NCBI GenBank assembly: GCA_030647555.1 | Contig: JAUSJG010000008.1 | Location: 129,467 to 193,466, forward strand | DNA length: 64,000 bases | DNA from: a bacterium | GTDB lineage: Bacteria > Patescibacteriota > Andersenbacteria > UBA10190 > CAIZMI01 | Reading direction: 5' to 3' | In this document: positions 17,461 through 60,763 of the stretch, piece after piece | How positions within the stretch are numbered: the first letter of the stretch is position 1 | Layout of the letters: each line of letters starts with the position of its first letter | Notes under the pieces: generated by a model | Seen by the model: only the letters and a program-made list of their open reading frames with translations | What the model was told of the DNA's origin: nothing | Databases searched by the model: none | Program-made: the position numbers and the translations under genes

Positions 17461-17539
17461 AAAAGGGCCAACAATAGCCAATAATTGTGCGAGCACATTT
17501 TCGGGTGCCATATTTTATGTTTCCAAACCGCCACGGATA

Positions 17540-17567
17540 TTGACAAAATATACAAAAAGAGTACAAT
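17540..17567 (+). promoter_or_regulatory. near-consensus sigma70-type promoter (TTGACA-N16-TACAAT)
   Basis: ttgacaaaatatacaaaaagagtacaat. The downstream ATG encodes only MGS*, so the promoter appears to drive a non-coding transcript. Confidence 0.4.
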
Positions 17568-17576
17568 TATGTTCAT

Positions 17577-18612
17577 CCCGAGTGCTGTTTCGTGTCCCGA
17601 AAGGAGGTGGTGTATGGGTTCATAACCCTTCACGGTGCGTTTCACGCATGGTGAGGGGGAGTAGAAACCCCTCACCCATCCTCAAGGGAGCAGTTACTCG
17701 CGCGATGTGTTGTTTCTCTATTTTTATTCTTGCGCCACTAGCTTCACGGACGACTCCGTGGGGTGATTGTATGGGCAAGAAGAGGAGGTGCTCCGATGTC
17801 CGAATGTCCGCTGTTGTGTTCGTGTTTTGAAGAAAAATATTGTGTGATGTTCGACGGCGCCGCGGCCGACTTGTGACCCCAAAGAAGTTCGGGGGTCGTG
17901 AGGTCGCCTCTTTTTCTTGAGTGCCGATGCTGTGCATCGGGTTGACGTGACAAGGTCCAATTATTAGGGGCCATCACCCTCAAGGGTTTCATTCACAAAT
18001 GGAGATACGATGGAGAATTTCGGGTTAGAGGATTCCCTGAAATTAGCCCCGAGCCGGCGGATCCGGAACTGTTGTTTTGAAAAATTGGTTTTTAGAGAAA
18101 GCGCGATTTTCGTAAATAGCTCCATGTGTAGGGCATATTGCGGGATCGCGGTCCGGCCGACGGCCGGATAGTTGAGGGGAGTTCGGCCAGTCTGGCGTGT
18201 GCATGGGGAGGCGAATATGCCTACTCTGAATCGCGCGCCACGTTTGGACTACTCCCGAAATGCGGAGTCCGCTTTTTCGGCGTTTCGCTGTCCAGGTTTC
18301 CGAGAGCGCTCGGAAATCGTCTGGCTCCAGCGGGGGCTGGAAGAAACGTGCCCTCGAGCCCCACGGCTCGCACTCCGGCTCGTTCTTCCACGGCCCATTT
18401 TCCGGAAGCGGATTCCGCCAAGTTGGGAGTGTCTAGGTTGCAGACCTCCCAAATCCCAGCATCAAGTGGATCTTGCCCACGGTACCAGGGCGCCACTCGC
18501 GGGATCATCGAGAGCCGGTGCGCAATGCACTTGCACCGCCTCTCACCTTTAACCCGGTGTCCTGTCAATCAAGCGTCGACACGCAAGATTGACAGGCCCG
18601 GGCCTTTTTTAT
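17577..18612 (+). ncRNA. candidate large structured non-coding transcript (about 1 kb) between a consensus promoter and a strong intrinsic terminator
   Basis: No ORF longer than 125 aa survives on either strand, and the candidates overlap in all frames. There are many perfect hairpins, for example ggtgagggg-gagtagaaa-cccctcacc, and the CCCTCAAGGG motif occurs twice. GC content is far above the host's. Confidence 0.25.
18556..18612 (+). terminator. compound intrinsic terminator
   Basis: cctgtcaatc-aagcgtcgacacgcaa-gattgacagg is a 10-bp-arm hairpin. It is followed by ggcccgggcc and then ttttttatttg. Confidence 0.5.
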
Positions 18613-18627
18613 TTGCGGAAGTTATTA

Positions 18628-18675
18628 GACCAGGGTTGAACCTTGGACAGGTTTGTCCAAGGTTCAACCCTGGTC
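18628..18675. repeat. perfect palindrome with about 21-bp arms (accagggttgaaccttggaca / tgtccaaggttcaaccctggt)
   Basis: Read directly. It is the longest perfect dyad in the window. Confidence 0.6.
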
Positions 18676-18773: not shown

Positions 18774-18802
18774 TTGACAAAAAATAAAGGCGGGATTATA
18801 AT
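18774..18802 (+). promoter_or_regulatory. perfect-consensus sigma70 promoter TTGACA-N17-TATAAT
   Basis: ttgacaaaaaataaaggcgggattataat. Confidence 0.45.
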
Positions 18803-18808
18803 ACACCC

Positions 18809-19050
18809 TACTGAATCGACGTCTCCGCCAAGAGTTAGTTTGCTCACTTCACTCACCTCAAATAAATCAATCGTACCGAAGCCGGTTGGTTTAATCACGA
18901 GGAACAACCAAAAAATTGCGTTTAGTAGGAAGAAGGCACGGCCACTTTTTGCGAACTATTCTTTTGTTCGCCTGCCGTTATTGCCACTTTCAAACGACGT
19001 AATCATTGGTTTTGAGTGATGACGGGTTCCGTTCCGTCAGACCTTTTGAC
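18809..19050 (+). ncRNA. candidate small RNA (about 240 nt) from the 18774 promoter to a hairpin plus U-tract
   Basis: No ORF starts downstream of the predicted TSS. tgacgggttccgttccgtcagacctttt at 19019-19050 is terminator-like. Confidence 0.2.
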
Positions 19051-19055
19051 AATTT

Positions 19056-19134
19056 TCCCTTGAATGTTCGACATGATTAATGAATGATGATTTATGATTC
19101 ATGAAGTCGAATATTGAAGGGAAGGCGTGAAAAA
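19056..19134. repeat. MITE-like element: imperfect terminal inverted repeats CCCTTGAATGTTCGAC / GTCGAATATTGAAGGG flanking an AATGATGA-rich core
   Basis: ccttgaatgttcgacatgattaatgaatgatgatttatgattcatgaagtcgaatattgaaggg. Confidence 0.45.
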
Positions 19135-19852
19135 TTTCGCGCTTGAATATCCGTTCCCCTCCTTCGTTAGATCCTTTGTGATGTAGCGAAAGAGGGGAAT
19201 AAGAGTGGACTGATTACATTAGCAACATCGGCAGTGCCGAAGACCAGATAATGCAACCCAAGATCGTTGGGTTCGCTGAAAGGTCGTTGCTAACAAAATC
19301 AGCAAACAAGTTTCTTGTTTGACGATCACCACTTGAGGTTCCCGCCGTTGATTATTTCAACGGTTTCCCTCAAATTTTCGAAACAAACCAATCGGTGACC
19401 GACCCTGGCCTGCCCCGCGTAGCTTTAGCGAAGTGTGGGCGTGCAGGGACGGTCCCCGAGCTTGGAAAATTTGAGGGGAAATCCTATGGCGTAAGGGTGT
19501 GTGCCGGTTTCCGACGGGCTGTGTCCGTGAGAGAAACCGAACCCATGCGTCATTCAGCTAGGGGCAGAAAATGGCCCATCGCTTCACACCGGCCACTACC
19601 GAGTGGACCGAAAAGCAGATCATAACTCTTTGATCTGTGTGTGGGGTGAGCGCTGAAAATTTCCACTGACGAGTGGGGAGAAAGTTGGCTGGTTTGTTTG
19701 GATGGGCGAGCCCTAACTCGCGCCATTTCAACCAGTCGACATCCGGAAGTTAGGGTCCGGAAAGCAGTGATGTAAGAGGTCATTACATGCACACAATTCC
19801 GCGGTCGGCAACGAGGGACGTCCTTGTTGTCGACCGCTTTCCTTCTTAAATT

Positions 19853-20119: not shown

Positions 20120-20464
20120 ATGCGAAGTTGGCAAGTATGGATATACGCTAACGATTGGCGACTGCTGGGTTTAGTCGAAGCAGAGAGCAAAGAAGAAGCC
20201 GCGAAAAAGCTCGGTTTTGACCGAGTTCTGCCAGGTGGGCGTCTCTTCAACTCCAATTTTTGCTTTGCACACAAATACCAGCTGAATCCGAAAAAGTGGT
20301 GTCATGACTGGCTTTCTCAGGTTCAAGTGTTTTTGAAGGATCCGCCAACAAGACTCTTGGACGACGAGAGTTTGCATGAAATGTTGGCTGGAGAATTCGA
20401 ATGGATATACGCATTTGGACGTGAAAGTGCAGGTATGCAACCACTCAATTCGGATAAGTGGTAG
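20120..20464 (+). CDS. hypothetical small protein (114 aa)
   Basis: An ORF with balanced composition inside the segment bracketed by the direct repeats. There is no recognisable motif. Confidence 0.3.
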   Translation: MRSWQVWIYANDWRLLGLVEAESKEEAAKKLGFDRVLPGGRLFNSNFCFAHKYQLNPKKWCHDWLSQVQVFLKDPPTRLLDDESLHEMLAGEFEWIYAFGRESAGMQPLNSDKW

Positions 20465-20720
20465 CTCGCCAATCATAATAGCGCTGGAGTTTGCGGAACA
20501 AAAGCAAACTATGCTTTGTCGGAAGAGGCAAATCTTGGCAAAGCATTCCCCGAGTAACAGCGCGAATAAAATCAAGGGGAAGTTAAGCAGTCGCTCAACT
20601 GCTTATGCGCGAATAGAAGAAGGCGCATAAAAAGGAATGAGCAAAGTGTTACACAACGGGCTGAGTCTTGTTTCACAAGTTTCGGCCCAAATTCATTTCA
20701 ATCTTTGGGAATATTTTTAT

Positions 20721-20755
20721 CAGTGACCGACCCAGGCGTACTGGGACGGTCACTG
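20721..20755. promoter_or_regulatory. 15-bp-stem hairpin cagtgaccgacccag-gcgta-ctgggacggtcactg
   Basis: Imperfect dyad about 60 nt upstream of the small TM ORF at 20816. Confidence 0.35.
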
Positions 20756-20815
20756 ATAAATACTATTAAAGATTGGTGTGAATTTACCAGTTTCGAAAAC
20801 CAAAGGGAGATTGTC

Positions 20816-21064
20816 ATGAATATGAATTGCTTCGCCCGGTTTTTCCTGGGCACCCCGCGGCGTTTTCTGGCCAGTGCGATTTTCGCCGTCATTGGGATGG
20901 TGATTGTCCACTTTCAACCGGGGTTGGTGTATCGGTCCGCCGATCGACTGGCGTGCGAGTGCATGCCGGTGATCAAGGCCGTCCTGACCTGCGTCATCGT
21001 CTTAGCCGGCTTTCGGATGATTGTCGCTGGCGGACGTGGTCGCGTCGGAGGCGGACGGCACTGA
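20816..21064 (+). CDS. hypothetical small 2-TM membrane protein (82 aa), GC-rich
   Basis: There is an RBS (aaagggag) 7 nt upstream of the ATG. The C-terminus is Gly/Arg-rich (AGGRGRVGGGRH). Confidence 0.3.
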   Translation: MNMNCFARFFLGTPRRFLASAIFAVIGMVIVHFQPGLVYRSADRLACECMPVIKAVLTCVIVLAGFRMIVAGGRGRVGGGRH

Positions 21065-22556: not shown

Positions 22557-22563
22557 TCGTCAA

Positions 22564-43150: not shown

Positions 43151-43163
43151 TTGTACGAGGCAT

Positions 43164-43551: not shown

Positions 43552-43711
43552 GGTTCTTTCAGGCCAAATCATGGTTGATGCGGCCTAAATCGTACACGAA
43601 GGAGGTCCGAGTATGACGCTCGACCTCCTTCCTTTTCTTCAGAGCGCGACAAACGTTGTCGTGCGCTCAAGTAAAAGATTTTAAACCCGCCGCGGCGGGA
43701 AGGAGAAAATC

Positions 43712-46564: not shown

Positions 46565-46588
46565 TACTTCTCCTGCGAATCGATCTTC

Positions 46589-46628
46589 GGCAAGTCCACG
46601 CATTGCGCGCGGACTTGCCACTTTTTTA
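46589..46628 (+). terminator. intrinsic terminator ggcaagtccacgcattgcgcgcggacttgcc + ACTTTTTT, followed by a second hairpin gtgttcgcgatgcgcgaacac
   Basis: A 9-bp GC stem followed by a U-tract. Confidence 0.55.
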
Positions 46629-46706
46629 AAGTTTATCAGTGGAAGTGTTCGCGATGCGCGAACACCTGATGGGCTTTTAGAAGTTTTTTTGAAAAGGAGA
46701 CACAGG

Positions 46707-47054: not shown

Positions 47055-47064
47055 GGAAAATGAG

Positions 47065-48279: not shown

Positions 48280-48280
48280 G

Positions 48281-49957
48281 ATGGCCGAGAAGAAAGTCCG
48301 GCCGCTCACCCGGCAGGAGCTGATGCCCCAGCTGGTGACGGACGCGGATGCCTTCACGGCCCTGCGTTACATCCGTCACCGTGAGCAAATGCCGGCATTA
48401 CCCGAGCTTGCGGAAAAAGGACAGGAAGTCCTACCCGGAAGCGAAGGCGTGTTGGCGGATTTGTATGACGCGTTGTGGGATCCGGAGCCGAGCCTCAAGG
48501 AAGAGGTGGCGCCGGATCGGGAGTATTGGAAAAAACTCCTGGGCCAAACAATTGAAACGGCGGCCTTTCAGGAGTTGCACGCGGCTACACAGCTTAAGGA
48601 TCTGCAATCGGTCCTTGGGACAATCGCGATGGGCGAATCAGTCCTCGCGTTGGTATCAAAAAAGGACCGGGATGAACTCCAAAAGTTGAAAGAGGCGACG
48701 CAGGAAGCGGAAGACGTGGCGGACGAGGCGGGGCAGGCCGAAGCAAACGCGCAAGTGGCGCAAATGCTGGCGGATGCTGCTGCAGAACAGTCCGCGGGCG
48801 CGGGACAATCAGGTCAGCCGCAAACCGGTAAGCCTTCGGGCAAACCGGGAAGTGGCAAGGGACAGATGAGTCCCGACCAAGCGCGGAAAATCGCCAACGA
48901 GCTGGCGAAGACGGCGGCAAAAGCGCAAGCCGATGCCAAAGCCGCGCGGGAACAGGCCGATGAGAAACGGCTCAACGCGGAAATTCAGGCCGAGGATTTG
49001 TTGGGACAACCCGGCAGTGACAAGGCTGAGAAAAAACTGCGTGAGTTGACGCGAATCGGTTTGCAGGCCATCAAAGGTGCTCAAGCGAAGGTGGAGGAAG
49101 TTTCCGAAACCATCGAAGCTTGGGGGTTGGAGGATGGCGAGCTGACGCGCCAAGGGATTCCCGAAGCGTTGGCGCTTTTGCAACGCATGAAGCGAAGCGA
49201 AGCGCTGAAAAAGTTCGCCGGCCTTTTGGGTCGCCTGCGCAAAATCGCGGCGCGGAAAGCGCGTGCCAAAGTTTCGGGAGAAGGAGTGCGGGTCACGGTT
49301 CCGGAAACGGGTCGCGATATTCGCCGCGCTCACACCTCCGAATTGGTTGCACTTACTTCACCAGCCCTTCGTGTTAAAGGATTAACACGTTGGGCACGCG
49401 GTGAACTGCGGTTGGTAGGCCAGCGCGCCAAGCAAAAGCTTGGCCACGGTCCGGTGATCGTCTGTGAAGACGGATCCGGTTCGATGGATGGAGCCAAGCA
49501 ACAGTGGGCGAAAGGTGTGACGTTGTCACTCGCCCACTACGCGAAGATCCAAAAGCGGTCGTTCGGATGGGTGCTTTTTGACTCTGCTGTAAAGCAGGCG
49601 AAGGGTTACCCGCAAGGACGATTGTCTGCCGAGCAGATGCTGGAGCTGGCCGAGTCGCGGGCCGGCGGCGGAACGAATTTCGAAGTTCCGCTTCGCAAAG
49701 CCATGGAGATGATTCAGAAAGAAGGCCTCAAAAAAGCCGACATCTGTTTTATCACCGATGGCGAATGCGCGGTGAGCGATGAGTTTCTCCGGGAATTTCT
49801 GGCGGTCAAGAAGACGCACGAGGTCAACGTATTCACGGTTTTATGTGATGTTGGCTCGACGTCCGATGCGACCGTACGGCAGTTCTCGGATCGAGTGGTT
49901 CGCGTTTCCAGCTTCACGGCAGAAGAAGCGGAAAGTGCGGTGTTTGGTTCTTTGTAG
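48281..49957 (+). CDS. von Willebrand factor A (VWA) domain protein with a complete MIDAS; the N-terminal region plus a low-complexity acidic/Ala-Gln linker give a CobT/ViaA-like architecture
   Basis: VIVCEDGSGSMDG is DxSxS. ...GGTNFE supplies the Thr and ...FITDGEC the Asp. The start codon abuts the MoxR stop, consistent with translational coupling. Confidence 0.7.
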   Translation: MAEKKVRPLTRQELMPQLVTDADAFTALRYIRHREQMPALPELAEKGQEVLPGSEGVLADLYDALWDPEPSLKEEVAPDREYWKKLLGQTIETAAFQELHAATQLKDLQSVLGTIAMGESVLALVSKKDRDELQKLKEATQEAEDVADEAGQAEANAQVAQMLADAAAEQSAGAGQSGQPQTGKPSGKPGSGKGQMSPDQARKIANELAKTAAKAQADAKAAREQADEKRLNAEIQAEDLLGQPGSDKAEKKLRELTRIGLQAIKGAQAKVEEVSETIEAWGLEDGELTRQGIPEALALLQRMKRSEALKKFAGLLGRLRKIAARKARAKVSGEGVRVTVPETGRDIRRAHTSELVALTSPALRVKGLTRWARGELRLVGQRAKQKLGHGPVIVCEDGSGSMDGAKQQWAKGVTLSLAHYAKIQKRSFGWVLFDSAVKQAKGYPQGRLSAEQMLELAESRAGGGTNFEVPLRKAMEMIQKEGLKKADICFITDGECAVSDEFLREFLAVKKTHEVNVFTVLCDVGSTSDATVRQFSDRVVRVSSFTAEEAESAVFGSL

Positions 49958-50076: not shown

Positions 50077-52038
50077 ATGGCCGAAGAAAAGTTGATTGTT
50101 TTGTTGGAAACCAGGGCGGGCAAGAATCCTGGCGAAGCGGTTGCCACCCACAACAGGCGGCAAATCGTCTTTTTGCCCCGAGGAACAACGGTTGGAGTCA
50201 ATGTCCGCGTCGTACTCGAAGAGATTACGACTAAAAAGGACAGCAACGGCCGTTCGATGTATCGCGGCGTACCCGCGCCAGTTGAGTACGTTGACAAGTG
50301 GAAGATCAACGGGGACGGAAGAGTTTCCAAAATCACCGTCTCTAAGGATTGGCTCGGCGGCGAACGGGAGGAAGGCGTAATTGAAACGCGTCAACCCGCC
50401 ACGCGTGACGGGTCACCGTGGACACAGACCGAAAGCACAGTAAGTTGGGGTGCAACTCTGGCAAACTGTGCCGTTGATCTCGTGGACACAACGACTACTC
50501 CGTTGGAAACGGAGTATGTCGAAGCGGGTCAACTCGTCTGGAGAAAGACGAGTGAACGAGTGGGGAAAAATACGCGTCGCGTTACCGTCACGGGTATTCG
50601 CGTAACCGCGTTAGATGCCACAACGTGGCAACCTGCCTATCCGCCAGACTGGCAGATTTCAGCGTCTGTGGCGTACGATGGCGGAACAGTTTCGACCAGC
50701 GTAACGTGGGCGAACGCGCCCAAAGAAACGCGGGACGAGATCGAGAACCGTTATTGTGTGTGCGCTTGCAGTCGACAGCGATACGATGTTCAGAATTCCG
50801 ATGGTTACGCCAAGTGCGAAAAGTGTCGGGAGAAAGAACACTGCGTGCGCTGTGGTAAGCAGGTCAAGGTTGCGGTCATTGCTGACCGCCTGATCTGCGC
50901 GAACTGCAGACCGTATGAAGATCGGGAACAGCTCATTAATCGGGTTGTGCCTAATCAGACACGGCAGGAGTTGGCGCAACAAGCGACACGGCTTTTGGCT
51001 GGAAATGTTGTGCCACGGGAGGCGGGAGAAGCGATTGTTCGCTCCACGCTCGGTCAAGTTGAACCGGATTGGAAACGTAATGGCGTAGTCGAGAAGTGTG
51101 TTGGGTACGCCTGGTATTACTTCTGCGAGGAGGGAGTCTACGGTTCCAAGTTTCCGTCGGCAGCGCTGCAGATTCTGCAGGGACTTCCGCAGGCGACCGG
51201 TAACGGCCTTGTTGACCTGGTTTCTTGGGTGGCTGGTCGTCAAAAACAGGAGGAGTGTGAGCGTTGTGGTGACTTCTTCTGTGAAAGTCAGGCTGGGAGA
51301 TTCTTCACTCCTTCGCCGAGCGAAAGTGAATTGCAAAACCTTTGTGTAGCAGTTCGGCTTCGCGGGTCGGAGGCAGATCGTATCGAGGCCCTACAGAAGT
51401 ATCGGGAACTGGTCGAAAAGCTAGGTTCCGATGCTAAGCAGGTAAGCGAAATCGCGGAAATCCTAAACTCGGATGAGCAGGACTACGCAGCAGTTCTTGT
51501 CAAAATTCACAACCTCGGAAAAGATCTGGCTTCGGCTGAACGAGGAGAAATTCTCGTGAATTTCGGCGGTCACTTTCGCATGATGGGCTACACTGGCCAG
51601 GCTCAATATTGGGTCATTCGGCCAGATGGTTCAGAACGCGAGCCTGACGAAGTTGATTACCGGAAACGGTACACTTCGGAAGGTAATAAAAAGTGGTGGC
51701 TGGTTAGTTCGGATGAGTTGGCGATTTCGTGGTTTAAGGGCACTACTGCCTCGAGCCATCAATGTGTCGTCGACAAACTTCCGGCTGGTGGGTGCACGCC
51801 CGAGCAACTGGCAACTGTTGCTCAACTCGAGCAAGAGCTTTCGGCTCGGTTCGAGGGCTCTCATGGTTGCAGTGGTGATCCGAGTCCTAACATCGGTGAG
51901 GGATGGAACCTCAAGTCGAAGGATGAACCGGACGTGGATGAACCCTACGAAATCGGTCCGCCCGCTCCAGCCAACACGTTGGATGTCCACAAACTTTTCG
52001 GCGGGCAGGTGCGAAAAAAACCCGCCGGTCGAAAGTAG
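50077..52038 (+). CDS. island gene F: 653-aa protein with a TRAM/OB-like N-terminus and two Cys-rich zinc-ribbon clusters
   Basis: The RBS is aaaaggagg. GEAVATHNRRQIVFLPRGTTVGVNVRVVLEEI follows a TRAM-like pattern. CVCACSRQRYD...CEKCREKEHCVRCGKQ...CANCRP and CERCGDFFCE are Cys clusters. Confidence 0.5.
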   Translation: MAEEKLIVLLETRAGKNPGEAVATHNRRQIVFLPRGTTVGVNVRVVLEEITTKKDSNGRSMYRGVPAPVEYVDKWKINGDGRVSKITVSKDWLGGEREEGVIETRQPATRDGSPWTQTESTVSWGATLANCAVDLVDTTTTPLETEYVEAGQLVWRKTSERVGKNTRRVTVTGIRVTALDATTWQPAYPPDWQISASVAYDGGTVSTSVTWANAPKETRDEIENRYCVCACSRQRYDVQNSDGYAKCEKCREKEHCVRCGKQVKVAVIADRLICANCRPYEDREQLINRVVPNQTRQELAQQATRLLAGNVVPREAGEAIVRSTLGQVEPDWKRNGVVEKCVGYAWYYFCEEGVYGSKFPSAALQILQGLPQATGNGLVDLVSWVAGRQKQEECERCGDFFCESQAGRFFTPSPSESELQNLCVAVRLRGSEADRIEALQKYRELVEKLGSDAKQVSEIAEILNSDEQDYAAVLVKIHNLGKDLASAERGEILVNFGGHFRMMGYTGQAQYWVIRPDGSEREPDEVDYRKRYTSEGNKKWWLVSSDELAISWFKGTTASSHQCVVDKLPAGGCTPEQLATVAQLEQELSARFEGSHGCSGDPSPNIGEGWNLKSKDEPDVDEPYEIGPPAPANTLDVHKLFGGQVRKKPAGRK

Positions 52039-52195: not shown

Positions 52196-52948
52196 ATGGC
52201 GCGTTTCATTATGGTGGTGGTGATGATGATGGTGGTGGTGACCGCGCGGGCCGAGACGTTGACCGGAGAAAAGGTCGACGTTAGGATCGACGTGGAAGGC
52301 GTGTCCACGCGGTTTTTTGAGCCGCGAGATATCGCGGGTACGGTGGACGGAGGGTCGCAGGATGCGACCTATCGGTTCCGATACACCCTTCTCCAGCCCG
52401 GCGATGCGTATTCGATCGCGGTGCAATCACGGTCGAATGGTCTTCGGTACGGCATTGGAGTCGCCGTCGATGGCCGCTGTATCCTGACCGGCATGAAGGT
52501 GCCGGCGACGGTACAAATGGCCTCGAGTTGGCCGAACATGTACGTCGTTGGTGGCCGCGGTGGCGAGTTTCGCGGCTGGCGGGAGGATGCCGGAAACATC
52601 CGGCGGTTCGTGGTTTCCAGTGAGGACCGGTCGCTGGCGGCGACGCTTTGGAACGATCGATCCGCAACGGGGACGATCGTTGTCTCCATCTTCCGAGAAA
52701 CCCCATCGCAGGAGCCCATGATGAAGGGCGAGCGCGGGGTAAAAGGGCTCGGGACGGCCGCCGGCGAGCGCGAGGAATCGCGCGTCGTGTCGGTAGACTT
52801 TACATCTCGCCCGGTCGCGTACGAAGTCTTCGTACTTCGGTATGCGTCGAAACCCGAGTTGAAGAAGCTCGGGGTGTGGACGGAGGAGGCAGTCCCGAAC
52901 CGGTTCTGGCCGACGGAGAAACCGTTCATCGGCCGAATCCCCGAGTAG
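52196..52948 (+). CDS. island gene G: secreted protein (signal peptide MARFIMVVVMMMVVVTARA, about 250 aa), function unknown
   Basis: It has a hydrophobic N-terminus with an ARA cleavage-like site. The start was trimmed to the Met after gggagaaaaaac. Confidence 0.5.
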   Translation: MARFIMVVVMMMVVVTARAETLTGEKVDVRIDVEGVSTRFFEPRDIAGTVDGGSQDATYRFRYTLLQPGDAYSIAVQSRSNGLRYGIGVAVDGRCILTGMKVPATVQMASSWPNMYVVGGRGGEFRGWREDAGNIRRFVVSSEDRSLAATLWNDRSATGTIVVSIFRETPSQEPMMKGERGVKGLGTAAGEREESRVVSVDFTSRPVAYEVFVLRYASKPELKKLGVWTEEAVPNRFWPTEKPFIGRIPE

Positions 52949-53026: not shown

Positions 53027-53080
53027 TAAGGTTCATCGGAAACAGTTCGGTGGGTCTTAACGAAAGAACAAAATCTTTTC

Positions 53081-53146
53081 CATCAATGCCTAGTACACCG
53101 GCCTAAATTTATTTATTGCCGACAGTTGTACGAGGCATTGACGGGA
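53081..53146 (+). promoter_or_regulatory. conserved upstream inverted-repeat element copy 2
   Basis: catcaatgcctagtacaccggcctaaatttatttattgccgacagttgtacgaggcattgacggga. Confidence 0.55.
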
Positions 53147-53191: not shown

Positions 53192-53536
53192 ATGACGCGC
53201 ATGGAACGTGTCGTTGATTGGTTTTTGGGTGTGTATTTTCCGTTCATTACTATTTTTTCTGGCTTGTTTTTCGTGGTGTGGGTATATTTGACCACCAGGC
53301 CGGTACACGATTTTCCGGAATGGGGTTTTGTCTTGTTTATCTGTTGGGTGGTGGTGGCTGTGCCGGCTCTTCCTTTGATGATCCTCACGATAATTCAGGA
53401 AAAAATTCGGCGGATGAAAGATGAGGCCCAGTTTTATCGGGACTGCTACGTCATCACTTTTTGTGATGAGGGTGGCATCACCGAAGAGTCGGCCGTCGAA
53501 ACTGGAAATCCCTACCAAAGTCCGATTTATGAGTGA
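53192..53536 (+). CDS. island gene H: small 2-TM membrane protein (114 aa)
   Basis: The RBS is aaaggggac. There are two hydrophobic helices, then a soluble tail ending CDEGGITEESAVETG. Confidence 0.45.
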   Translation: MTRMERVVDWFLGVYFPFITIFSGLFFVVWVYLTTRPVHDFPEWGFVLFICWVVVAVPALPLMILTIIQEKIRRMKDEAQFYRDCYVITFCDEGGITEESAVETGNPYQSPIYE

Positions 53537-53689: not shown

Positions 53690-53736
53690 CGGAGATTGCT
53701 TCGCCTCGCTGTTGCGATGGCTCGCAAAGACTGCGT
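53690..53736. repeat. short dispersed repeat CGGAGATTGCTTCG-N17-CTCGCAAAGAC, intergenic copy
   Basis: The copy at 54889-54933 shares both ends and lies inside murC. Confidence 0.45.
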
Positions 53737-53769
53737 TACACAGTCGCTAAAAGGCTATTGAGTCTAAAA

Positions 53770-54046
53770 ATCCCCCGTCGCTACCTCCTTCGCTAAAGCT
53801 TCGGAGGTCAAGAAAGCTTCGGGGGACGCAGTGAGAATCAGACCCTGGGAGGTCGGTTACGATCCGCCCGCCCATTTTAATAAATGGGCGAGGTTCAATT
53901 TTCTCTCCTGACCGTGTCGCCTAAAAAGCACGCGGGAATCAAACAGGCACCTCGGTCCGTATCATTTCTCACTGCGCCCACCGTAGCTCATCAGAGCGAA
54001 GGAGGGTTAACGACTCGATAGCCTTTTGGCGGTTTTTTTGTGCGTG
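53770..54046 (+). ncRNA. candidate structured leader / attenuator RNA upstream of murC (about 280 nt, ending in an intrinsic terminator)
   Basis: There are long-range pairings: cgtcgctacctccttcgct with agcgaaggagggttaacgac, and gacgcagtgagaa with ttctcactgcg. The terminal gccttttggc + GGTTTTTTT hairpin lies about 100 nt before the murC ATG. Confidence 0.3.
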
Positions 54047-58026: not shown

Positions 58027-59207
58027 AATTACTGCTGATTAATAATGAGTTTCCGCCAATTGGTGGTGGCGGGTCGACGGTTGCGAAGTACGCGGTAAAA
58101 TATTTTTCCGAAGCGGGACATGATGTTACGCTGATTACTTCGAGATTCCGCGATTTGCCTATACGGGAAAAGTTTTTGGCGCAAGGCGAGAATGGCGAAA
58201 AAAAGGGTAGTGTGACGATTATTCGCGTTCCGGCGGTGCGCCGTTATAAAGATTTTTGCGCGGCGTGGGAACTGGTAACGTTTGGTGTGTCCGCGTTAGT
58301 TTATTGTTTGTGGTACGTGCCGAAAAATCGGCCGGATGTGATTCATGCGTATTTTGCTTTGCCTTCCGGTTGGGTGGCGCGCATTATTAAAATGATTTAC
58401 GGTACGCCGTATTCCGTTTATTTTGGCGGTTCGGATATGCCGGGGGCGAATCCCAGTCGCTTTAAACAGCTTTATCCTTTTATCACTCTTTTGACGCGCT
58501 GGGTTTGGCGTGGAGCGACAATTTCTACCGTCTGTTCGCGGGGCCTATTGGAATTGGGGCGACAACACGATCCGAAATATGATTTTCGTCTAATTCCAAA
58601 TGGCGTCGAATTATCCCGTTTTGTGCCGATTGAACGCCAGCCGAATCCGAAAGTGAAAATATTATTTATCGGCCGTTTGATAGCGCGCAAGGGTTTCCAA
58701 TATGTTGTGCAAGCTTTGCCACGGATTCAGGCGTTGTGTAATGTGCCGTTCGATGTGGAAGTGGTGGGGACAGGGGCGATGCGTTCGCGTTTGGACGGTT
58801 TAGCGTTAAAACTCGGCGTCAGTCATTTGATTAAATATGTGGGAACGGTGCCGTATGAAAAATTACACGAAAGCTACCAAGGCGCGGATATTTTTGTGTT
58901 GACTTCCGAATCGGAAGGAATGCCGGCGGTGACATTGGAGGCGATGGGTTGCGGTTTGCCGATTGTGACGACCAATATTCCGGGAAACCGGGAAATTGTG
59001 CAGGAAGGCGTGAACGGGTATCTTGTTAATGTCGGTGATACGGAAAAACTGGCGACCTCGCTTTCGAAGCTTATTACTGACGAGCAACTTCGAAAGCAAA
59101 TGGGCACGGCGAGTCGTGCTTCCGTGCAATCGTATGAATGGCGCGAAATTATCAAGCGTTACGAAAATATTTTAACCGAAATTTATCACGACAAAAAAAA
59201 TGGCTAA
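58023..59207 (+). CDS. glycosyltransferase family 4
   Basis: LLLINNEFPPIGGGGSTV ... EGMPAVTLEAMGCGLPIVTTN are GT4 motifs. Confidence 0.7.
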   Translation: MKLLLINNEFPPIGGGGSTVAKYAVKYFSEAGHDVTLITSRFRDLPIREKFLAQGENGEKKGSVTIIRVPAVRRYKDFCAAWELVTFGVSALVYCLWYVPKNRPDVIHAYFALPSGWVARIIKMIYGTPYSVYFGGSDMPGANPSRFKQLYPFITLLTRWVWRGATISTVCSRGLLELGRQHDPKYDFRLIPNGVELSRFVPIERQPNPKVKILFIGRLIARKGFQYVVQALPRIQALCNVPFDVEVVGTGAMRSRLDGLALKLGVSHLIKYVGTVPYEKLHESYQGADIFVLTSESEGMPAVTLEAMGCGLPIVTTNIPGNREIVQEGVNGYLVNVGDTEKLATSLSKLITDEQLRKQMGTASRASVQSYEWREIIKRYENILTEIYHDKKNG

Positions 59208-60225
59208 TGTTGAAATCAAAGAAAATACCAGTTTAAATTTGGAAAAAACTTTTCGCGGAAAAAAAACGCTGATTACCGGCGGGCTAGGTTTTATTGGAAG
59301 CAACATCGCCCAAAAATTGGTGGAACTGGGCGCGGAGGTGACGGTGTTGGACGCGTTATTGCCACTCTATGGTGGCAACGAATTTAATGTCGCTGATATT
59401 AAAGACAAAGTTAAGGTTGTGATTGGTGATATTCGTGATGAGAAGGTGGTCAATGAAGTGGTGGCAGGTCAGGATTATATTTTTAATCTTGCGGCGCAAG
59501 TTAGCTATATTGATAGTATCAATGAACCCTTTCTTGATTTGGATATTAATTGTCTAGGACATTTACGTGTTTTGGAGGCGGCGCGCAAATTCGCTCCGCA
59601 AACGAAAATTCTTTTCTCCTCTTCGCGTTTGGCTTATGGCCGGATTATGACGACTCCCGTCGATGAGAGTCATCCGACAAATCCGGTAAGTATGTATGGC
59701 GTGCATAAGTTGGCGGCGGAAAAATATTATCGCATTTACTTTGAAACATTCGGTTTAAAGTCTTCTGTAATTCGAATTCCAAATCCCTACGGCCCACGTC
59801 AACAGATGAAACATAATAAATATTCTATTGTCGGTTGGTTTATTCGCCAGGCTCTGGAAGGGAAGGATATTACGATCTTTGGCGACGGAAAACAAGAAAG
59901 AGATTATTTGTACATCGATGATATTGTCTCCGCTTTTTTGAAAGTGGCCGCGTCCGATAAAACAAACGGTGAAATTTATAATATCGGTACGCATGAACGT
60001 GTTTGTTTTGTGGATATGGTGGACGCAATATTGGCCGAAATTGCTACGGGTAAGAAAACACATATTCCGTGGCCGAAAAATTATGAGCGCAATGAAACCG
60101 GAAACTATATCGCCGACACACGCAAGATAAAAAGAGCGGTTGGTTGGGAAGCGACAGTGCCGTTAAAGGCGGGCATCACCGAAACGGTAGAATACTTTAA
60201 GCAAAATAAGGAACATTATTGGTAA
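59200..60225 (+). CDS. NAD-dependent sugar-nucleotide epimerase/dehydratase (extended SDR, UDP-hexose 4-epimerase-like)
   Basis: LITGGLGFIGSNIAQKLVELGAEVTVLD is the GxxGxxG motif. The YxxxK active-site pair YGVHKLAAE is present. Confidence 0.75.
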   Translation: MANVEIKENTSLNLEKTFRGKKTLITGGLGFIGSNIAQKLVELGAEVTVLDALLPLYGGNEFNVADIKDKVKVVIGDIRDEKVVNEVVAGQDYIFNLAAQVSYIDSINEPFLDLDINCLGHLRVLEAARKFAPQTKILFSSSRLAYGRIMTTPVDESHPTNPVSMYGVHKLAAEKYYRIYFETFGLKSSVIRIPNPYGPRQQMKHNKYSIVGWFIRQALEGKDITIFGDGKQERDYLYIDDIVSAFLKVAASDKTNGEIYNIGTHERVCFVDMVDAILAEIATGKKTHIPWPKNYERNETGNYIADTRKIKRAVGWEATVPLKAGITETVEYFKQNKEHYW

Positions 60226-60239
60226 AAAACATCCCGCCC

Positions 60240-60300
60240 GCAGGCGAGGCTCGCCCTGAAGGGTGGCCCCCGTCGCTCTGATGAGCTTCCACCCTTCACC
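60240..60300. repeat. GC-rich dispersed repeat copy 3 (GCGAGGCTCGCCCTGAAGGGTGG...CGCTCTGATGAGC)
   Basis: It lies at the left edge of a short GC-rich patch (60.23-60.76 kb). Confidence 0.4.
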
Positions 60301-60763
60301 TCTTTGTTACGGCGTGGCGCTGTGGGGGATTATTGTTCTTTCCGAAGAACAATAAAAAAACCGCATTATTGTTTGGCTGTTTCAAACAATTACGCGGTGT
60401 GATCAATGCTTTGCACTGATCGTTTGTTCCAAGGTGGCTTAAGGCACAAAGAGACATCATCTTTCGCGCGAGAGCCAACAATTCCGGATTCACGCGAATT
60501 GGTCTGCGACTCATCTTGCCAAAAGTCACCCTGATGTGGCGAATGTCCGCGAATGCCTCCCGGGCATTTGGATCCCGCAAACACCCTCTCCACACTCTCT
60601 GTGTGGTATCGCGGTCGAGGCTGATCATGCCTCGATTTTTTCGCGAAAACCACACACCGTATTTCAAAAAGAGCGATATGTATTTTTCTGATTCGAATAT
60701 ACTATACTTATCATTAGATCATTTGTCAACAGGGTTTTTTCATGTTACGTTTGTCAAAGACAA

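What the first reader, a model, noticed from the sequence alone, without database searches (positions are those of the whole stretch)
17480..60760. Sharp compositional discontinuities: three GC-rich patches in a low-GC genome
The patches at 17.5-21.1 kb, 42.3-53.7 kb and 60.23-60.76 kb are visibly GC-rich and use GC-rich codons. They sit between AT-rich dcw/glycosyltransferase genes with otherwise intact synteny (mraY-ftsW-murG | island | murC-murB). This indicates recent horizontal acquisition from a high-GC donor. Alternatively, the contig may be chimeric (metagenomic mis-assembly).
Basis: seen in the sequence. Interest (0 to 1): 0.55.

Follow-up and report, generated by a model that had tools for sequence, protein, structure and literature searches.

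The report
GC-rich patches mark structured-RNA loci
In this low-GC candidate-phyla-radiation (CPR) bacterium, the large GC-rich patch is a real inserted CPR-only gene cassette (MoxR–vWA plus Csx3/AAA) that stays GC-rich in every host and whose RNAs are predicted to be unusually folded, the first patch is an old conserved non-coding RNA locus, and the third patch is unremarkable.

Summary
**Observation: partly confirmed.** Background GC is 0.428.
- Patch 2 (0.553) is far outside background.
- Patch 1 (0.488) is moderately elevated, patchy and mostly non-coding.
- Patch 3 (0.482) is matched by 4% of background windows.

**Patch 2** lies in a 12.2-kb insertion between murG and murC, which abut in relatives. 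It holds promoter-driven structured leaders and nine + strand genes: Csx3, AAA, AAA–Csx3–X, MoxR, vWA, a CPR-only 653-aa zinc-ribbon protein and others.
- The core cassette recurs in at least five other CPR genomes, often beside tRNA or toxin–antitoxin genes.
- It is always 0.54–0.64 GC while low-GC host genes in those loci are 0.33–0.47 GC; two loci also have GC-rich genes on one flank.
- All named homologs are CPR, so no high-GC donor is indicated.
- Its coding regions fold far better than synonymous-codon shuffles (z −3.5 to −12). Host genes and ordinary GC-rich CPR genes do not.

**Patch 1** is ancestral, not imported. A ~1-kb ORF-less unit with promoter and terminator is 74–88% identical in four relatives, more conserved than the flanking genes in three of the four. 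One relative has Ro60 beside it.

**Chimerism is unlikely.** An independent MAG shows the same murG–leader junction.

**Best reading:** the GC-rich patches reflect selection for RNA structure, and the cassette is a new variant of MoxR–vWA conflict systems.

The parts
17540..17567 (+). Near-consensus promoter of non-coding unit P1_A (TTGACA-16-TACAAT)
   Evidence: 11 of 12 consensus positions; sequence.
17575..18615 (+). Unit P1_A. The 5' part (about 17524-17846) is conserved, followed by a ~0.8-kb GC-rich segment that is unrelated between relatives. No credible ORF.
   Evidence: 81.6% identity to L018 running on from TrmB to 17846; variable segments mutually unrelated; fold z -7.0.
18628..18675 (.). 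Perfect hairpin with 22-nt arms between the two units; conserved in L013
   Evidence: I21; L013 10393-10439, 94% identity.
18774..18802 (+). Consensus promoter of unit P1_B (TTGACA-17-TATAAT), conserved in four relatives
   Evidence: 12 of 12; alignments.
18806..19840 (+). Unit P1_B: a conserved, ORF-less, structured RNA candidate of ~1 kb. Its terminator at 19801-19837 changes by compensatory substitutions between genomes.
   Evidence: 74-88% nucleotide identity; flanking genes 66-82%; 77 pairs, 97% paired; z -14.2; no conserved ORF; no Rfam family.
20120..21064 (+). Two small ORFs (20120-20464 and 20705-21064; the second has GC3 0.62) and a terminator at 21100-21123. The second ORF region is conserved at DNA level in L013, L014 and L017.
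   Evidence: no family match.
41942..42010 (-). Host-lineage GC-rich repeat element (GGAGATTGCTTCG ... CGCAAAGAC) on the left outer arm of the insertion
42038..42108 (+). tRNA-like mini-element: 7-bp acceptor stem and canonical T-arm (GGTTCGATTCC). Not called as a tRNA or tmRNA.
   Evidence: tmRNA tRNA-like domain, 26 bits, E 2e-8, below the gathering score of 47; ARAGORN none; cloverleaf-like fold, z -0.7.
42337..42365 (+). Near-consensus promoter (TTGACA-17-TATACT). Its region is conserved upstream of the leaders in L001 and L006.
42375..43100 (+). Structured leader RNA of the cassette. A hairpin motif at 42487-42570 (core ACCTGGGNAAANATACCAGTAG) is shared with L001 and L006. May contain a 66-aa ORF at 42791-42991.
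   Evidence: (z -9.8).
43104..43171 (+). 68-nt direct repeat, copy 1 (itself an imperfect palindrome). Copy 2 is at 53080-53146.
   Evidence: (D4, D19).
43240..44293 (+). Stand-alone Csx3 (43240-43551; keeps the H60, D69 and H80-like positions, with K in place of R71) and a P-loop 'AAA' protein (43712-44293). Together they form a split Csx3-AAA.
   Evidence: (PDLC01045, E 1e-19 and 7e-60); catalytic residues as defined in PMC7371418.
44290..46122 (+). 610-aa fusion of AAA, a degenerate Csx3 domain (H57R, H60A, D69V, R71V) and an uncharacterised ~155-aa beta-rich C-terminal domain
   Evidence: (AAA-Csx3 C3a67, E 3e-48).
46133..47054 (+). Mvol_0529-like protein (46133-46564) and a small 121-aa protein (46689-47054). 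A protein of 93-116 aa precedes MoxR in all the other cassettes.
47038..49957 (+). MoxR AAA+ ATPase (likely start at 47065) and its vWA partner (48281-49957; MIDAS-type DGSGS motif visible in the sequence)
   Evidence: (PF20030, E 3e-20; VWA_2).
50077..52038 (+). 653-aa CPR-only third component, beta-rich with conserved Cys clusters (zinc ribbons). The model is confident but has no fold match.
   Evidence: (pLDDT 85.3).
52196..52948 (+). 250-aa protein with a hydrophobic N-terminus. It is preceded by a copy of the 48-nt leader module (52135-52182, similar to 43178-43225) and flanked by repeated terminators (52055-52098, 52993-53036).
   Evidence: (D3, D10).
53080..53146 (+). 68-nt direct repeat, copy 2
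53192..53536 (+). 114-aa predicted membrane protein downstream of repeat copy 2, with intermediate GC (0.47)
53691..54040 (+). Host-lineage repeat element (53691-53733), then a ~290-nt multi-branch RNA candidate closed by a 21-bp stem and ending in a U-run
   Evidence: z -8.8, 0 of 100 shuffles fold as well; no Rfam family.
60226..60763 (-). Patch 3: a 540-nt intergenic insertion absent from L002. It contains a GC-rich terminator-type hairpin (60243-60268), a minus-strand consensus promoter (TTGACA-17-TATAGT, about 60727-60699) and a 123-aa ORF or RNA unit (60667-60296).
   Evidence: (D5, I22).

Best explanation
The patches do not share one recent import from a high-GC organism. In this ~43% GC CPR (Patescibacteria) genome they mark places where RNA appears to be selected for dense secondary structure.

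(1) 41.9-54.2 kb is a 12.2-kb lineage-specific insertion between murG and murC. It carries a CPR-endemic accessory cassette:
- a strong promoter and a ~0.7-kb structured leader, preceded by a tRNA-like mini-element;
- nine co-oriented genes: an active-looking Csx3, a P-loop AAA protein, an AAA-(inactive Csx3)-X fusion, an Mvol_0529-like protein, a small protein, MoxR, vWA, a CPR-only 653-aa zinc-ribbon protein and a protein with a hydrophobic N-terminus;
- a small membrane protein and a ~290-nt structured RNA on the right arm.
The MoxR-vWA-third-protein core, with Csx3/AAA modules, recurs across distant CPR lineages in variable sites next to tRNA or toxin-antitoxin genes. It stays 54-64% GC whatever the host GC. 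Its mRNAs are predicted to be much more base-paired than synonymous recodings.

Inferred mechanism: this is a MoxR-vWA 'ternary' NTP-dependent conflict or surveillance system. The 653-aa protein would be the sensor or adaptor. The Csx3/AAA modules would bind or cleave RNA or cyclic oligoadenylate. The GC-rich, heavily folded transcripts would keep the system expressible or regulated when single-strand-specific RNases are active.

(2) 17.4-21.2 kb is an ancestral non-coding locus with two ~1-kb promoter-driven units (a clear terminator only for the second). The second is a conserved structured RNA, which in one relative lies beside a Ro60 gene.

(3) 60.2-60.8 kb is a small intergenic insertion with a terminator hairpin and a short minus-strand unit. 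Its composition is not exceptional.

Shown: the insertion, the gene content, recurrence of the cassette, its constant GC, the excess predicted folding, and conservation of the patch-1 RNA. Inferred: the biochemical function, and the reason the RNA is structured.
For: Insertion and synteny.

Gene content.

Cassette recurrence in L006, L008, L010, L019 and L020, next to tRNA or toxin-antitoxin genes.

CPR-only homologs.

Constant cassette GC (0.54-0.64) against low-GC host genes of 0.33-0.47.

Excess folding:
- Cassette coding segments give z -3.5 to -12 against synonymous-codon shuffles in five genomes.
- Host genes give about 0.
- GC-rich ordinary CPR genes (0.61-0.68 GC) give +1.3 to -1.6.
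- The sense strand is stronger than the antisense strand.
- In the whole-window profile, z is -2 to -10 continuously over 17.2-21.2 kb and 42.0-53.2 kb, and about 0 elsewhere.

Patch-1 RNA:
- promoter and terminator;
- 74-88% identity in four relatives, against 66-82% for flanking genes;
- structure-compatible substitutions: 97% of cells paired, against 33-48% when partners are slid;
- no conserved ORF;
- Ro60 next to it in L013.

Framework for MoxR-vWA ternary systems, and Csx3 as an occasional effector domain: PMC7159879. Experimental precedent for a MoxR-vWA sensing pathway: PMC13622651. Csx3 catalytic residues: PMC7371418.
Against: - No transcription or structure-probing data exist. All RNA structure here is predicted (MFE z-scores with 12-60 shuffles), and synonymous shuffling does not preserve codon-pair context.
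- Covariation in P1_B is weak: 4 compensatory pairs in 5 closely related sequences, covariation score 0.161 against 0.140.
- Neither the 653-aa protein nor the C-terminal domain of the fusion has a recognisable fold, so the sensor and effector roles are guesses.
- No nucleotide cyclase, cas genes or RNA ligase were seen in the cassettes, so the ligand or substrate of Csx3 is unknown.
- In L008, and partly in L019, one flank is as GC-rich as the cassette. The 'always richer than the host' statement therefore rests mainly on four genomes.
- The 68-nt direct repeats and the 9,994-bp Logan contig are equally compatible with an excisable element.
Confidence: 0.68

Rival explanations
1. Patch 2 is an integrated mobile element, such as an episome or satellite, that keeps its own composition because it moves often between CPR hosts. 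The 68-nt direct repeats would be attL and attR, and the 9,976-bp unit between them could excise as a circle. On this view GC-richness reflects the element's lifestyle, not selection on RNA.
For: - Two copies of a 68-nt direct repeat (identical except for one indel) bracket 9,976 bp.
- The Logan assembly yields exactly this unit as a separate 9,994-bp contig.
- A tRNA-like fragment lies at the left arm.
- Cassettes lie next to tRNA genes in L008 and L010, with a tRNA 3'-fragment duplicate in L008.
- Cassettes sit in toxin-antitoxin-rich variable regions.
- The L001 contig breaks just after murG.
Against: - No integrase, transposase, relaxase or replication gene was found in the insertion or in five other cassettes.
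- Other cassettes lack flanking repeats. Instead they have near-identical internal repeats of leader modules (L010, 96-98%), so the window's repeats may be reused regulatory modules.
- Repeat copy 2 sits upstream of another gene, and the insertion extends ~1 kb beyond each repeat.
- Cassette proteins differ by 30-65% between hosts. That is too diverged for 'recent transfer' to explain an unameliorated composition.
- A Logan contig break at a 42-nt exact repeat is expected for k=31 whether or not the element excises.
Confidence: 0.3
2. Recent horizontal acquisition from a high-GC donor outside the lineage. The GC content would be the donor's genomic signature, not yet ameliorated.
For: - Strong contrast in GC, GC3 and tetranucleotide composition.
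- The insertion is absent from relatives L002 and L003.
Against: - All named homologs are CPR.
- There are no close hits in IMG/VR, and phage hits are only 31-35% identical.
- The same cassette has the same GC in hosts of 0.33-0.47 GC despite deep protein divergence.
- Patch 1 is ancestral.
Confidence: 0.06
3. Chimeric metagenomic assembly: the GC-rich segment belongs to another organism and was joined in through short repeats.
For: - This is a MAG contig.
- A 42-nt exact repeat at both ends of the GC-rich core could mislead an assembler.
- The Logan assembly separates the core.
- Logan contig L012 ends inside patch 1 at position 20722.
Against: - Independent MAG L001 (91% MurG identity) has the same promoter and leader motif directly downstream of its murG.
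- A 13-mer specific to the host lineage occurs on both outer arms of the insertion and in relatives L001, L013 and L018.
- The cassette family is CPR-specific and shows the same contrast with its flanks on long contigs from NCBI, ENA and JGI assemblies.
- Logan contig L012 independently confirms the junction between the GC-rich end of patch 1 and the AT-rich glycosyltransferase side.
- A chimera would need two errors that precisely respect the murG and murC gene boundaries.
Confidence: 0.05
4. The GC-richness of the cassette is a by-product of something other than RNA structure, for example amino-acid or codon selection, biased gene conversion, or avoidance of AT-targeting nucleases or silencers. 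On this view the folding excess is a side effect or a prediction artefact.
For: - Predicted MFE z-scores are indirect.
- GC1 is also raised in cassette genes (0.60-0.67), so protein composition contributes.
- Antisense strands also show some excess (z -1.6 to -4.5).
Against: - Synonymous shuffles keep the protein, codon usage and GC3, yet they lose 3.5-12 standard deviations of stability.
- Equally GC-rich ordinary CPR genes show no excess.
- The sense strand always exceeds the antisense strand.
- The non-coding leader, right arm and patch-1 units show the same excess.
Confidence: 0.15
5. Patch 1 is the decayed remnant of formerly coding GC-rich DNA, for example a Ro60-containing island, and not a set of RNA genes.
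For: - Relative L013 has Ro60 and small ORFs at this locus.
- The window lacks them, and part of unit P1_A is hypervariable.
Against: - tblastn finds no Ro60 remnant and no other protein remnant.
- P1_B keeps a consensus promoter, a compensating terminator and invariant blocks of 30-40 nt.
- P1_B is more conserved than the neighbouring genes in L013, L014 and L017, and about equal to them in L018. Pseudogenes do not behave like this.
Confidence: 0.07

Closest known systems
MoxR-vWA-centric ternary conflict systems (Kaur, Burroughs, Iyer & Aravind, eLife 2020; PMC7159879)
   Same: An adjacent MoxR AAA+ ATPase matches the Pfam model built from these systems (PF20030, E 3e-20). A vWA partner has a MIDAS-type DGSGS motif. 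A conserved third gene immediately follows. The cassette sits in variable, toxin-antitoxin-rich neighbourhoods. Csx3 was reported there as an occasional effector domain.
   Different: - The third component is none of the four described kinds (VMAP, iSTAND, FtsH-like, beta-propeller). It is a CPR-only zinc-ribbon beta-rich protein with no fold match.
- Csx3/AAA proteins are separate genes in every cassette examined.
- The hosts are tiny-genome CPR bacteria, not the multicellular bacteria emphasised in that study.
- The long structured leaders and the heavily folded coding regions have no counterpart in that description.
Csx3/Crn3 ring nuclease and the Csx3-AAA / AAA-Csx3 (C3a67) accessory proteins of type III CRISPR-Cas (PMC7371418; PMC6546367)
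   Same: Sequence matches to Csx3, Csx3-AAA and AAA-Csx3 models (E 1e-19 to 7e-60) and to the solved AF_1864 protein. The stand-alone copy keeps the H60, D69 and H80-like positions.
   Different: - No cas genes or CRISPR array accompany the cassette in the window or in the five other cassette loci.
- The window's Csx3-AAA is split into two genes.
- The fused Csx3 domain has lost H57, H60, D69 and R71.
- The genes are linked to MoxR-vWA, not to Cas10 effector complexes.
Classical genomic islands (tRNA-associated, integrase-borne, compositionally atypical)
   Same: Insertion relative to close relatives, atypical composition, a tRNA-like fragment and direct repeats, and tRNA adjacency in other genomes.
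   Different: There are no integrase or other mobility genes. The repeats lie inside the insertion and resemble reused regulatory modules. The composition stays constant across hosts despite deep sequence divergence.
Ro60 (Rsr)-Y RNA ribonucleoproteins of bacteria (PMC4201824)
   Same: In relative L013 a TROVE + vWA_Ro60 protein is encoded beside the conserved structured RNA of patch 1. Bacterial Y RNAs are encoded next to Ro60 and contain tRNA-like modules. The window has a tRNA-like element, although it lies at patch 2.
   Different: The window has no Ro60. The patch-1 RNA is ~1 kb, whereas Y RNAs are ~100 nt. There is no Rfam Y-RNA or YrlA match, and no T-loop motif in patch 1.
Large structured bacterial non-coding RNAs found as GC-rich intergenic regions in AT-rich genomes (OLE, GOLLD, ROOL, HEARO, raiA). 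This comparison is from general knowledge, not from a test here.
   Same: A long ORF-less intergenic region, GC-enriched relative to the genome, with its own promoter and terminator, conserved blocks and variable hairpins.
   Different: No Rfam 15 family matches, even at permissive thresholds. The distribution looks narrow: five genomes, and a single extra hit in the JGI metagenome scan.
MoxR-vWA chaperone pairs of jumbo phages (Bacillus phage 0305phi8-36 gp66/gp63, Moorella phage MTATph1; PMC7824862)
   Same: A homologous MoxR-vWA gene pair (vWA 31-35% identical; PHROG 24053, E 8.5e-58).
   Different: In phages the pair is interpreted as a virion-assembly chaperone. It lacks the Csx3/AAA genes and the 653-aa partner.

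Membership tests
Recently acquired genomic island from a high-GC donor | Present here but absent at the same site in close relatives | tested here: met
   murG and murC are 5 nt apart in L002 and ~160 nt apart in L003, against 12.2 kb here.
Recently acquired genomic island from a high-GC donor | Composition and codon usage deviate from the host | tested here: met
   GC 0.553 against 0.428; GC3 0.56-0.88 against 0.34-0.49; tetranucleotide distance 2-3 times background.
Recently acquired genomic island from a high-GC donor | Mobility genes (integrase, transposase, relaxase) | tested here: not met
   None found by Pfam, PHROGs, PADLOC or NCBIfam in 41.9-54.2 kb, nor in five other cassettes.
Recently acquired genomic island from a high-GC donor | Flanking att-type direct repeats or a tRNA target | tested here: inconclusive
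   A 68-nt direct repeat brackets 9,976 bp, but it lies ~1 kb inside the insertion on each side and resembles the internal regulatory repeats of L010. A tRNA-like element is present at 42038-42108.
Recently acquired genomic island from a high-GC donor | Close homologs in a donor lineage with matching composition | tested here: not met
   All named homologs are CPR. The cassette is 0.54-0.64 GC while low-GC host genes in the same loci are 0.33-0.47 GC.
MoxR-vWA ternary conflict systems | MoxR-class AAA+ ATPase of the ternary-system type | tested here: met
   PF20030 bpMoxR E 3.3e-20, AAA_lid_8 E 1.5e-10, AAA_5.
MoxR-vWA ternary conflict systems | Adjacent vWA-domain partner with a MIDAS motif | tested here: met
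   VWA_2 at E 1.4e-6 in the next gene. A DGSGS motif is visible in the translation. The pair is conserved in six cassettes.
MoxR-vWA ternary conflict systems | Third core component of a described kind (VMAP, iSTAND, FtsH-type, beta-propeller) | tested here: not met
   A conserved third gene is present in all six cassettes. It has no Pfam, NCBIfam, PADLOC or PHROG match, and its confident model (pLDDT 85) has no PDB or BFVD fold match.
MoxR-vWA ternary conflict systems | Variable effector domains attached to or linked with the core | tested here: inconclusive
   The linked genes vary: Csx3/AAA in all cassettes, a PHP phosphoesterase and a methyltransferase in L010, and an acetyltransferase in L008. 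None is a proven effector.
Type III CRISPR-associated Csx3/Crn3 | Csx3 domain by sequence | tested here: met
   PF09620 (E 8.8e-7 and 2.5e-4), PADLOC Csx3 and Csx3-AAA models, and PDB AF_1864 at E 1e-6.
Type III CRISPR-associated Csx3/Crn3 | Catalytic residues H57/H60, D69, R71 and H80 | tested here: inconclusive
   The window's stand-alone copy has H60, D69, K in place of R71, an S-H like H80, and H57 shifted by one position. L008's copy has all of them. The fused copy lacks H57, H60, D69 and R71 (residues from PMC7371418).
Type III CRISPR-associated Csx3/Crn3 | Genomic association with type III cas genes or a CRISPR array | tested here: not met
   No CRISPR-like repeat family in the window. 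No cas Pfam families in the six cassette neighbourhoods. The rest of each genome was not examined.
Ro60-Y RNA system (for patch 1) | Ro60 (TROVE) gene adjacent to the RNA | tested here: not met
   tblastn with L013's Ro60 finds nothing in the window. Ro60 is adjacent to the RNA only in relative L013.
Ro60-Y RNA system (for patch 1) | Y-RNA or YrlA covariance-model match, or a tRNA-like module | tested here: not met
   No Rfam match in the window or in L013, even at E up to 1. The only T-loop motif in the window is at 42084.
Known large non-coding RNA classes in Rfam 15 | Covariance-model match | tested here: not met
   No hits at gathering thresholds, and only spurious hits at E up to 1-5.
Chimeric assembly | Junctions unsupported by reads, with a coverage step between island and flanks | not testable with these tools
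   Reads were not available.

The most novel reading that the evidence does not exclude
CPR bacteria carry a previously undescribed RNA-centred accessory system. A MoxR-vWA core has a new zinc-ribbon third component and Csx3/AAA modules. Its entire ~11-kb transcript set, coding regions included, is under selection for dense secondary structure. That selection would hold its GC at 54-64% in hosts as low as 33% GC. The mRNAs would be 'armoured' and stay functional under RNase-based conflict, or the RNA itself would be a working part of the system. Alongside it sit new classes of structured RNA: a ~1-kb RNA that neighbours Ro60 in a relative, and a ~290-nt RNA on the right arm of the insertion.
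Probability: 0.35. Interest if true: 0.8.

Novelty: new variant of a known kind. Interest (0 to 1): 0.64.

Why it matters
Compositional islands are routinely read as recent foreign DNA or as mis-assembly. Here the same cassette keeps a high GC content across hosts of very different GC, despite deep sequence divergence, and its coding regions are predicted to be far more base-paired than synonymous recodings. That points to selection on RNA structure as a cause of a 'GC island'.

If this holds, it has three consequences:
- It gives a concrete reason not to trim such regions from CPR MAGs as contamination.
- It defines a widespread CPR-specific MoxR-vWA/Csx3 system with an unknown third component, which can be tested biochemically.
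- It adds candidate large structured RNAs, one of them linked to Ro60, in a group of organisms with tiny genomes and almost no characterised RNA biology.

Tried and rejected
- **rRNA, tRNA or known RNA genes as the cause of the ORF-free GC-rich stretches.** Rfam at gathering thresholds and ARAGORN found nothing. Permissive Rfam scans gave only spurious miRNA-type hits, apart from the tmRNA-like tRNA-like element.
- **Patch 1 as decayed coding DNA.** tblastn with ORFs from relatives and with Ro60 found nothing meaningful.
- **Exact-sequence look-ups of MurG and MoxR.** Not on record; the MoxR start codon was probably mis-chosen.
- **IMG/VR scans with three island proteins.** No relatives.
- **Similarity between Ro60 and the island's vWA protein.** Only the generic vWA fold.
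- **Flanking repeats in other cassettes.** None were found; there were only internal leader-module repeats. This weakened the att-site reading.
- **The leader hairpin motif.** Found only in the three closest cassettes.
- **The metagenome scan for the P1_B core block.** Only one extra locus, so covariation power stayed low.
- **Fold z-scores against dinucleotide shuffles.** I first distrusted these because an island coding control also scored -7.9. Following that up produced the coding-region structure result.

Full report
**Source and background**

The exact 653-aa island protein is recorded as 'MAG: hypothetical protein Q7S57_02900 [bacterium]' on a 257,598-bp NCBI contig. MurG relatives are uncultured CPR MAGs labelled 'Saccharibacteria'. 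With the three patches removed, the window is 0.428 GC. Host genes have GC3 of 0.34-0.49.

**Checking the observation**

- Patch 2 is unmistakable. The interval 42300-53700 is 0.553 GC, and no same-size background window exceeds 0.433. Its genes have GC3 of 0.56-0.88, and its tetranucleotide distance is 2-3 times background. The GC-rich block runs from about 42.4 to 53.15 kb.
- Patch 1 (0.488 GC) exceeds all 668 background windows. It is a mosaic, with 200-nt windows from 0.37 to 0.635. The stretch 17405-20119 has no credible ORF.
- Patch 3 (0.482 GC) is matched by 4% of background windows.
- Pfam confirms mraY, ftsW and murG on the left of patch 2, and murC and murB on the right.
- No tRNA gene or Rfam family explains any patch.

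**Patch 2 is a true insertion**

In L002 (80% MurG identity) murC starts 5 nt after murG. In L003 the gap is ~160 nt. Here it is 12.2 kb, from 41937 to 54153.

From left to right the insertion contains:
- a GC-rich repeat element specific to the host lineage (41942-42010);
- a tRNA-like mini-element at 42038-42108, with a 7-bp acceptor stem and a canonical T-arm. It matches the tmRNA tRNA-like domain at 26 bits (E 2e-8), below the gathering score, and ARAGORN does not call it;
- a near-consensus promoter at 42337-42365;
- a ~0.7-kb ORF-poor leader;
- a 68-nt repeat at 43104-43171;
- nine + strand genes;
- the second copy of the 68-nt repeat at 53080-53146;
- a 114-aa membrane protein;
- another copy of the lineage repeat;
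- a ~290-nt RNA candidate closed by a 21-bp stem (z -8.8).

**Gene content of the cassette**

- A stand-alone Csx3 and a P-loop AAA protein, which together match a split Csx3-AAA (PADLOC E 1e-19 and 7e-60).
- A 610-aa fusion of AAA, Csx3 and an unknown domain (model C3a67, E 3e-48).
- An Mvol_0529-like protein and a small 121-aa protein.
- MoxR (PF20030 bpMoxR, E 3e-20) and its vWA partner.
- A 653-aa protein with no family match.
- A 250-aa protein with a hydrophobic N-terminus.

Against the residues shown to be essential in A. fulgidus Csx3 (PMC7371418), the stand-alone Csx3 keeps H60, D69 and the H80-like histidine, with K in place of R71. The fused domain has H57R, H60A, D69V and R71V, so it could bind a ligand but probably cannot cleave it.

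The 653-aa protein gives a confident model (pLDDT 85.3) with invariant cysteine clusters, but it has no PDB or BFVD match. The fusion's C-terminal ~155-aa domain belongs to a large family of mostly stand-alone proteins (1,008 representative clusters at E up to 0.001). It models at pLDDT 95.8 and has no PDB match.

**The cassette is CPR-endemic and recurrent**

- The 653-aa family has 44 members. The named ones are Liptonbacteria, Parcubacteria and Gottesmanbacteria.
- MoxR has more than 200 relatives at 62-89% identity. Every named one is CPR: WWE3, Jacksonbacteria, Minisyncoccia or Patescibacteria.
- Five further contexts (L006, L008, L010, L019, L020) show the same order: a Csx3-containing and/or AAA-type protein (Csx3 hit on record in four of the five), a small protein, MoxR, vWA, then a large protein.
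- These cassettes lie next to tRNA genes or among HicAB, PIN and HigB toxin-antitoxin genes.
- IMG/VR holds no close relatives. Only the MoxR-vWA pair is found in jumbo phages, at 31-35% identity.

**Composition is a property of the cassette, not of a donor**

The MoxR-vWA-third-gene core is 0.54-0.64 GC (GC3 0.56-0.77) in all six genomes. Low-GC host genes in the same loci are 0.33-0.47 GC. In L020 the murD-like gene is 0.34 GC and the cassette is 0.55-0.59. L008, and partly L019, also have GC-rich genes on one flank, so the contrast rests mainly on four genomes. The cassette proteins have diverged to 35-70% identity, so failure to ameliorate after a recent transfer cannot explain the constant GC.

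**An unexpected property: excess predicted RNA structure**

The non-coding units fold far better than dinucleotide shuffles (z -6 to -14), but so did an island coding control. I therefore used synonymous-codon shuffles, which preserve the protein, codon usage and GC3.
- Cassette coding segments score z -3.7 to -6.7 in the window, -7.3 to -12.0 in L020 and -5.0 in L010. Host genes range from +1.5 to -1.3.
- Ordinary GC-rich genes from GC-rich CPR loci (0.61-0.68 GC) score +1.3 to -1.6. Cassette genes in the window, L008 and L019 score -3.5 to -5.5, always stronger on the sense strand.
- A 400-nt profile of the whole window shows z of about -2 to -10 continuously over 17.2-21.2 kb (mean about -6.6 on the + strand) and 42.0-53.2 kb (mean about -4.9), and again at 53.6 kb. 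Elsewhere z is near 0, apart from isolated terminator and palindrome spikes. Patch 3 is only mildly negative.

The GC-rich patches therefore coincide with zones of excess predicted folding. In patch 2 this includes coding sequence.

**Patch 1 is an ancestral RNA locus**

The region has two near-consensus promoters (17540-17567 and 18774-18802) and a strong terminator at 19801-19837.
- Unit P1_B (about 18806-19840) is 84-88% identical in L013, 79-82% in L014, 74% in L017 and 76-83% in L018. The flanking TrmB and glycosyltransferase genes are 66-82% identical.
- The alignments show invariant blocks of 30-40 nt, hairpins replaced by different hairpins, and a terminator stem that changes by compensatory substitutions.
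- A consensus fold of the 5' domain has 77 pairs. 97.1% of cells are paired, against 33-48% when partners are slid. Four pairs show double changes. The covariation score is 0.161 against 0.140 for shuffles, reached by 4 of 500 shuffles. This is supportive but weak, because the sequences are close.
- No reading frame with a usable start is conserved.
- Unit P1_A has a conserved 5' part (to about 17846), followed by ~0.9-1.1 kb of GC-rich sequence that is unrelated between genomes.
- All four relatives are GC-elevated at this locus.
- In L013 a TROVE + vWA_Ro60 protein lies between the RNA and the glycosyltransferase. The window has no Ro60 remnant. No Y-RNA model matches anywhere.
- A metagenome scan with the most conserved 22-nt block found only L018, so the RNA seems confined to a narrow clade.

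**Patch 3**

The two flanking genes overlap in L002, so the 540 nt are an insertion. It holds a GC-rich hairpin of a family that sits at the 3' ends of genes (D5, I22), a minus-strand consensus promoter and a 123-aa ORF with no family match.

**Repeats and mobility**

The 68-nt repeats bracket 9,976 bp. The Logan assembly of SRR13727527 gives a 9,994-bp contig that starts and ends inside them. That is expected for a k=31 graph and says nothing about excision. Other cassettes lack flanking repeats. L010 has 153-nt leader modules repeated at 96-98% upstream of two genes. The window likewise reuses a 48-nt leader (43178-43225 and 52135-52182) and a terminator. I therefore regard the repeats as either att sites or regulatory modules, and the question stays unresolved. 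No mobility gene was found.

**Chimerism**

Reads could not be examined. The indirect evidence against chimerism is as follows:
- Independent MAG L001 has the cassette-type promoter and leader motif immediately after its murG.
- The 13-mer GGAGATTGCTTCG occurs three times in the window (0.11 expected): on both outer arms of the insertion and inside murC. It also occurs once each in relatives L001, L013 and L018, and in no other locus.
- Logan contig L012 independently reproduces the junction of the GC-rich end of patch 1 with the AT-rich side.
- The same GC contrast recurs in other assemblies.

**Interpretation**

The closest framework is the MoxR-vWA ternary conflict systems (PMC7159879). A recent preprint gives experimental support for a MoxR-vWA sensing pathway in Actinobacteria (PMC13622651). 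This cassette meets the MoxR and vWA criteria, but its third component is new and Csx3/AAA modules accompany it in every cassette examined. I therefore file it as a new variant, not as a member of a described subtype.

The proposed logic is inference: MoxR-vWA acts as an NTP-dependent switch, the 653-aa protein as sensor or adaptor, the Csx3/AAA modules act on RNA or cyclic oligoadenylate, and the GC-rich folded transcripts resist single-strand-specific RNases. What is shown is the insertion, the recurrence of the cassette, its constant GC, the excess predicted structure, and the conserved RNA unit in patch 1.

Noticed in passing
window 54891-54938 (inside murC, 54154-55572): A copy of the lineage-specific GC-rich repeat (GGAGATTGCTTCG ... 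CGCAAAGAC, 73% identical to 53690-53738) lies in frame inside the murC coding sequence. It looks as if a REP/MITE-like element was absorbed into the protein.
   Followed up: partly
window 1063-1104, 25854-25892, 60243-60268: A family of GC-rich hairpins (GCGAGCCTCGCCC...GGGCGG) sits just past the 3' ends of genes. They are probably terminator or REP-like elements, and they create short GC spikes in the AT-rich background.
   Followed up: no
window 10734-10771, 19070-19107, 33898-33935, 54041-54078; inverted copies at 22547-22582 and 54094-54125: A recurrent AT-rich motif (TGAATGATGAATNATGA...) occurs in intergenic regions upstream of genes, including just before murC. It may be a shared promoter or operator element of the host.
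   Followed up: no
window 39257-39331 and 40528-40676: Five tandem copies of a 15-nt unit (AATTATCAATTACAT) lie between mraY and ftsW. A 57-nt AT-rich inverted repeat lies between ftsW and murG (fold z -5 to -7 in the 400-nt profile).
   Followed up: no
window 19875-19898 and 21455-21478; L018 3641-3676: An identical palindromic 24-mer (GGGCAATTCATGAATTGCCCCTAC) occurs twice, bracketing the 1.6-kb small-ORF segment of patch 1. It also occurs next to TrmB in L018.
   Followed up: no
window 17424-17463 and 16454-16579: A 40-nt perfect palindrome lies right after the TrmB stop codon. A 25-nt inverted repeat lies upstream of TrmB, in a 400-nt window with fold z of -4 (+ strand) and -8.9 (- strand).
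   Followed up: no
L013 5176-6864 (- strand); L018 1-900: A bacterial Ro60/Rsr ortholog (TROVE + vWA_Ro60, 562 aa) is present in a CPR relative at the patch-1 locus, with no detectable Y RNA by Rfam. L018 shares the adjacent small-ORF region and may also carry Ro60 beyond its contig end.
   Followed up: partly
L010 5828-5980 and 6613-6778; window 43178-43225 and 52135-52182: Within each cassette, the intergenic leader modules are near-identical (96-98% in L010, 94% in the window). Each contains a GCCATGGC palindrome followed by TCTYAAC and a ribosome-binding site. Between genomes the modules differ, which suggests concerted evolution or a shared regulator binding site.
   Followed up: partly
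L010 3361-4218 and 13168-13914; L020 18985-19596: Some cassette versions or their neighbourhoods carry a PHP phosphoesterase and a class-I methyltransferase (L010). A LigT/2'-5' RNA ligase-family gene lies nearby in L020. These enzyme types are typical of RNA-end healing and repair systems.
   Followed up: no
L008 3472-3508: A 37-nt fragment 76% identical to the 3' end of the adjacent tRNA-Ala lies between tRNA-Ala and tRNA-Phe, just upstream of the cassette. It looks like an old att-type duplication.
   Followed up: no
L014 5985-6611: A Y1-transposase (IS200/IS605-type) gene is inserted into the otherwise syntenic glycosyltransferase cluster of a relative. It is absent from the window.
   Followed up: no
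L019 15268-17214: A GC-rich (0.64-0.65) 648-aa gene flanking the L019 cassette also shows excess sense-strand folding (z -4.65 against synonymous shuffles). The structured, GC-rich block may therefore extend beyond the core cassette there.
   Followed up: no
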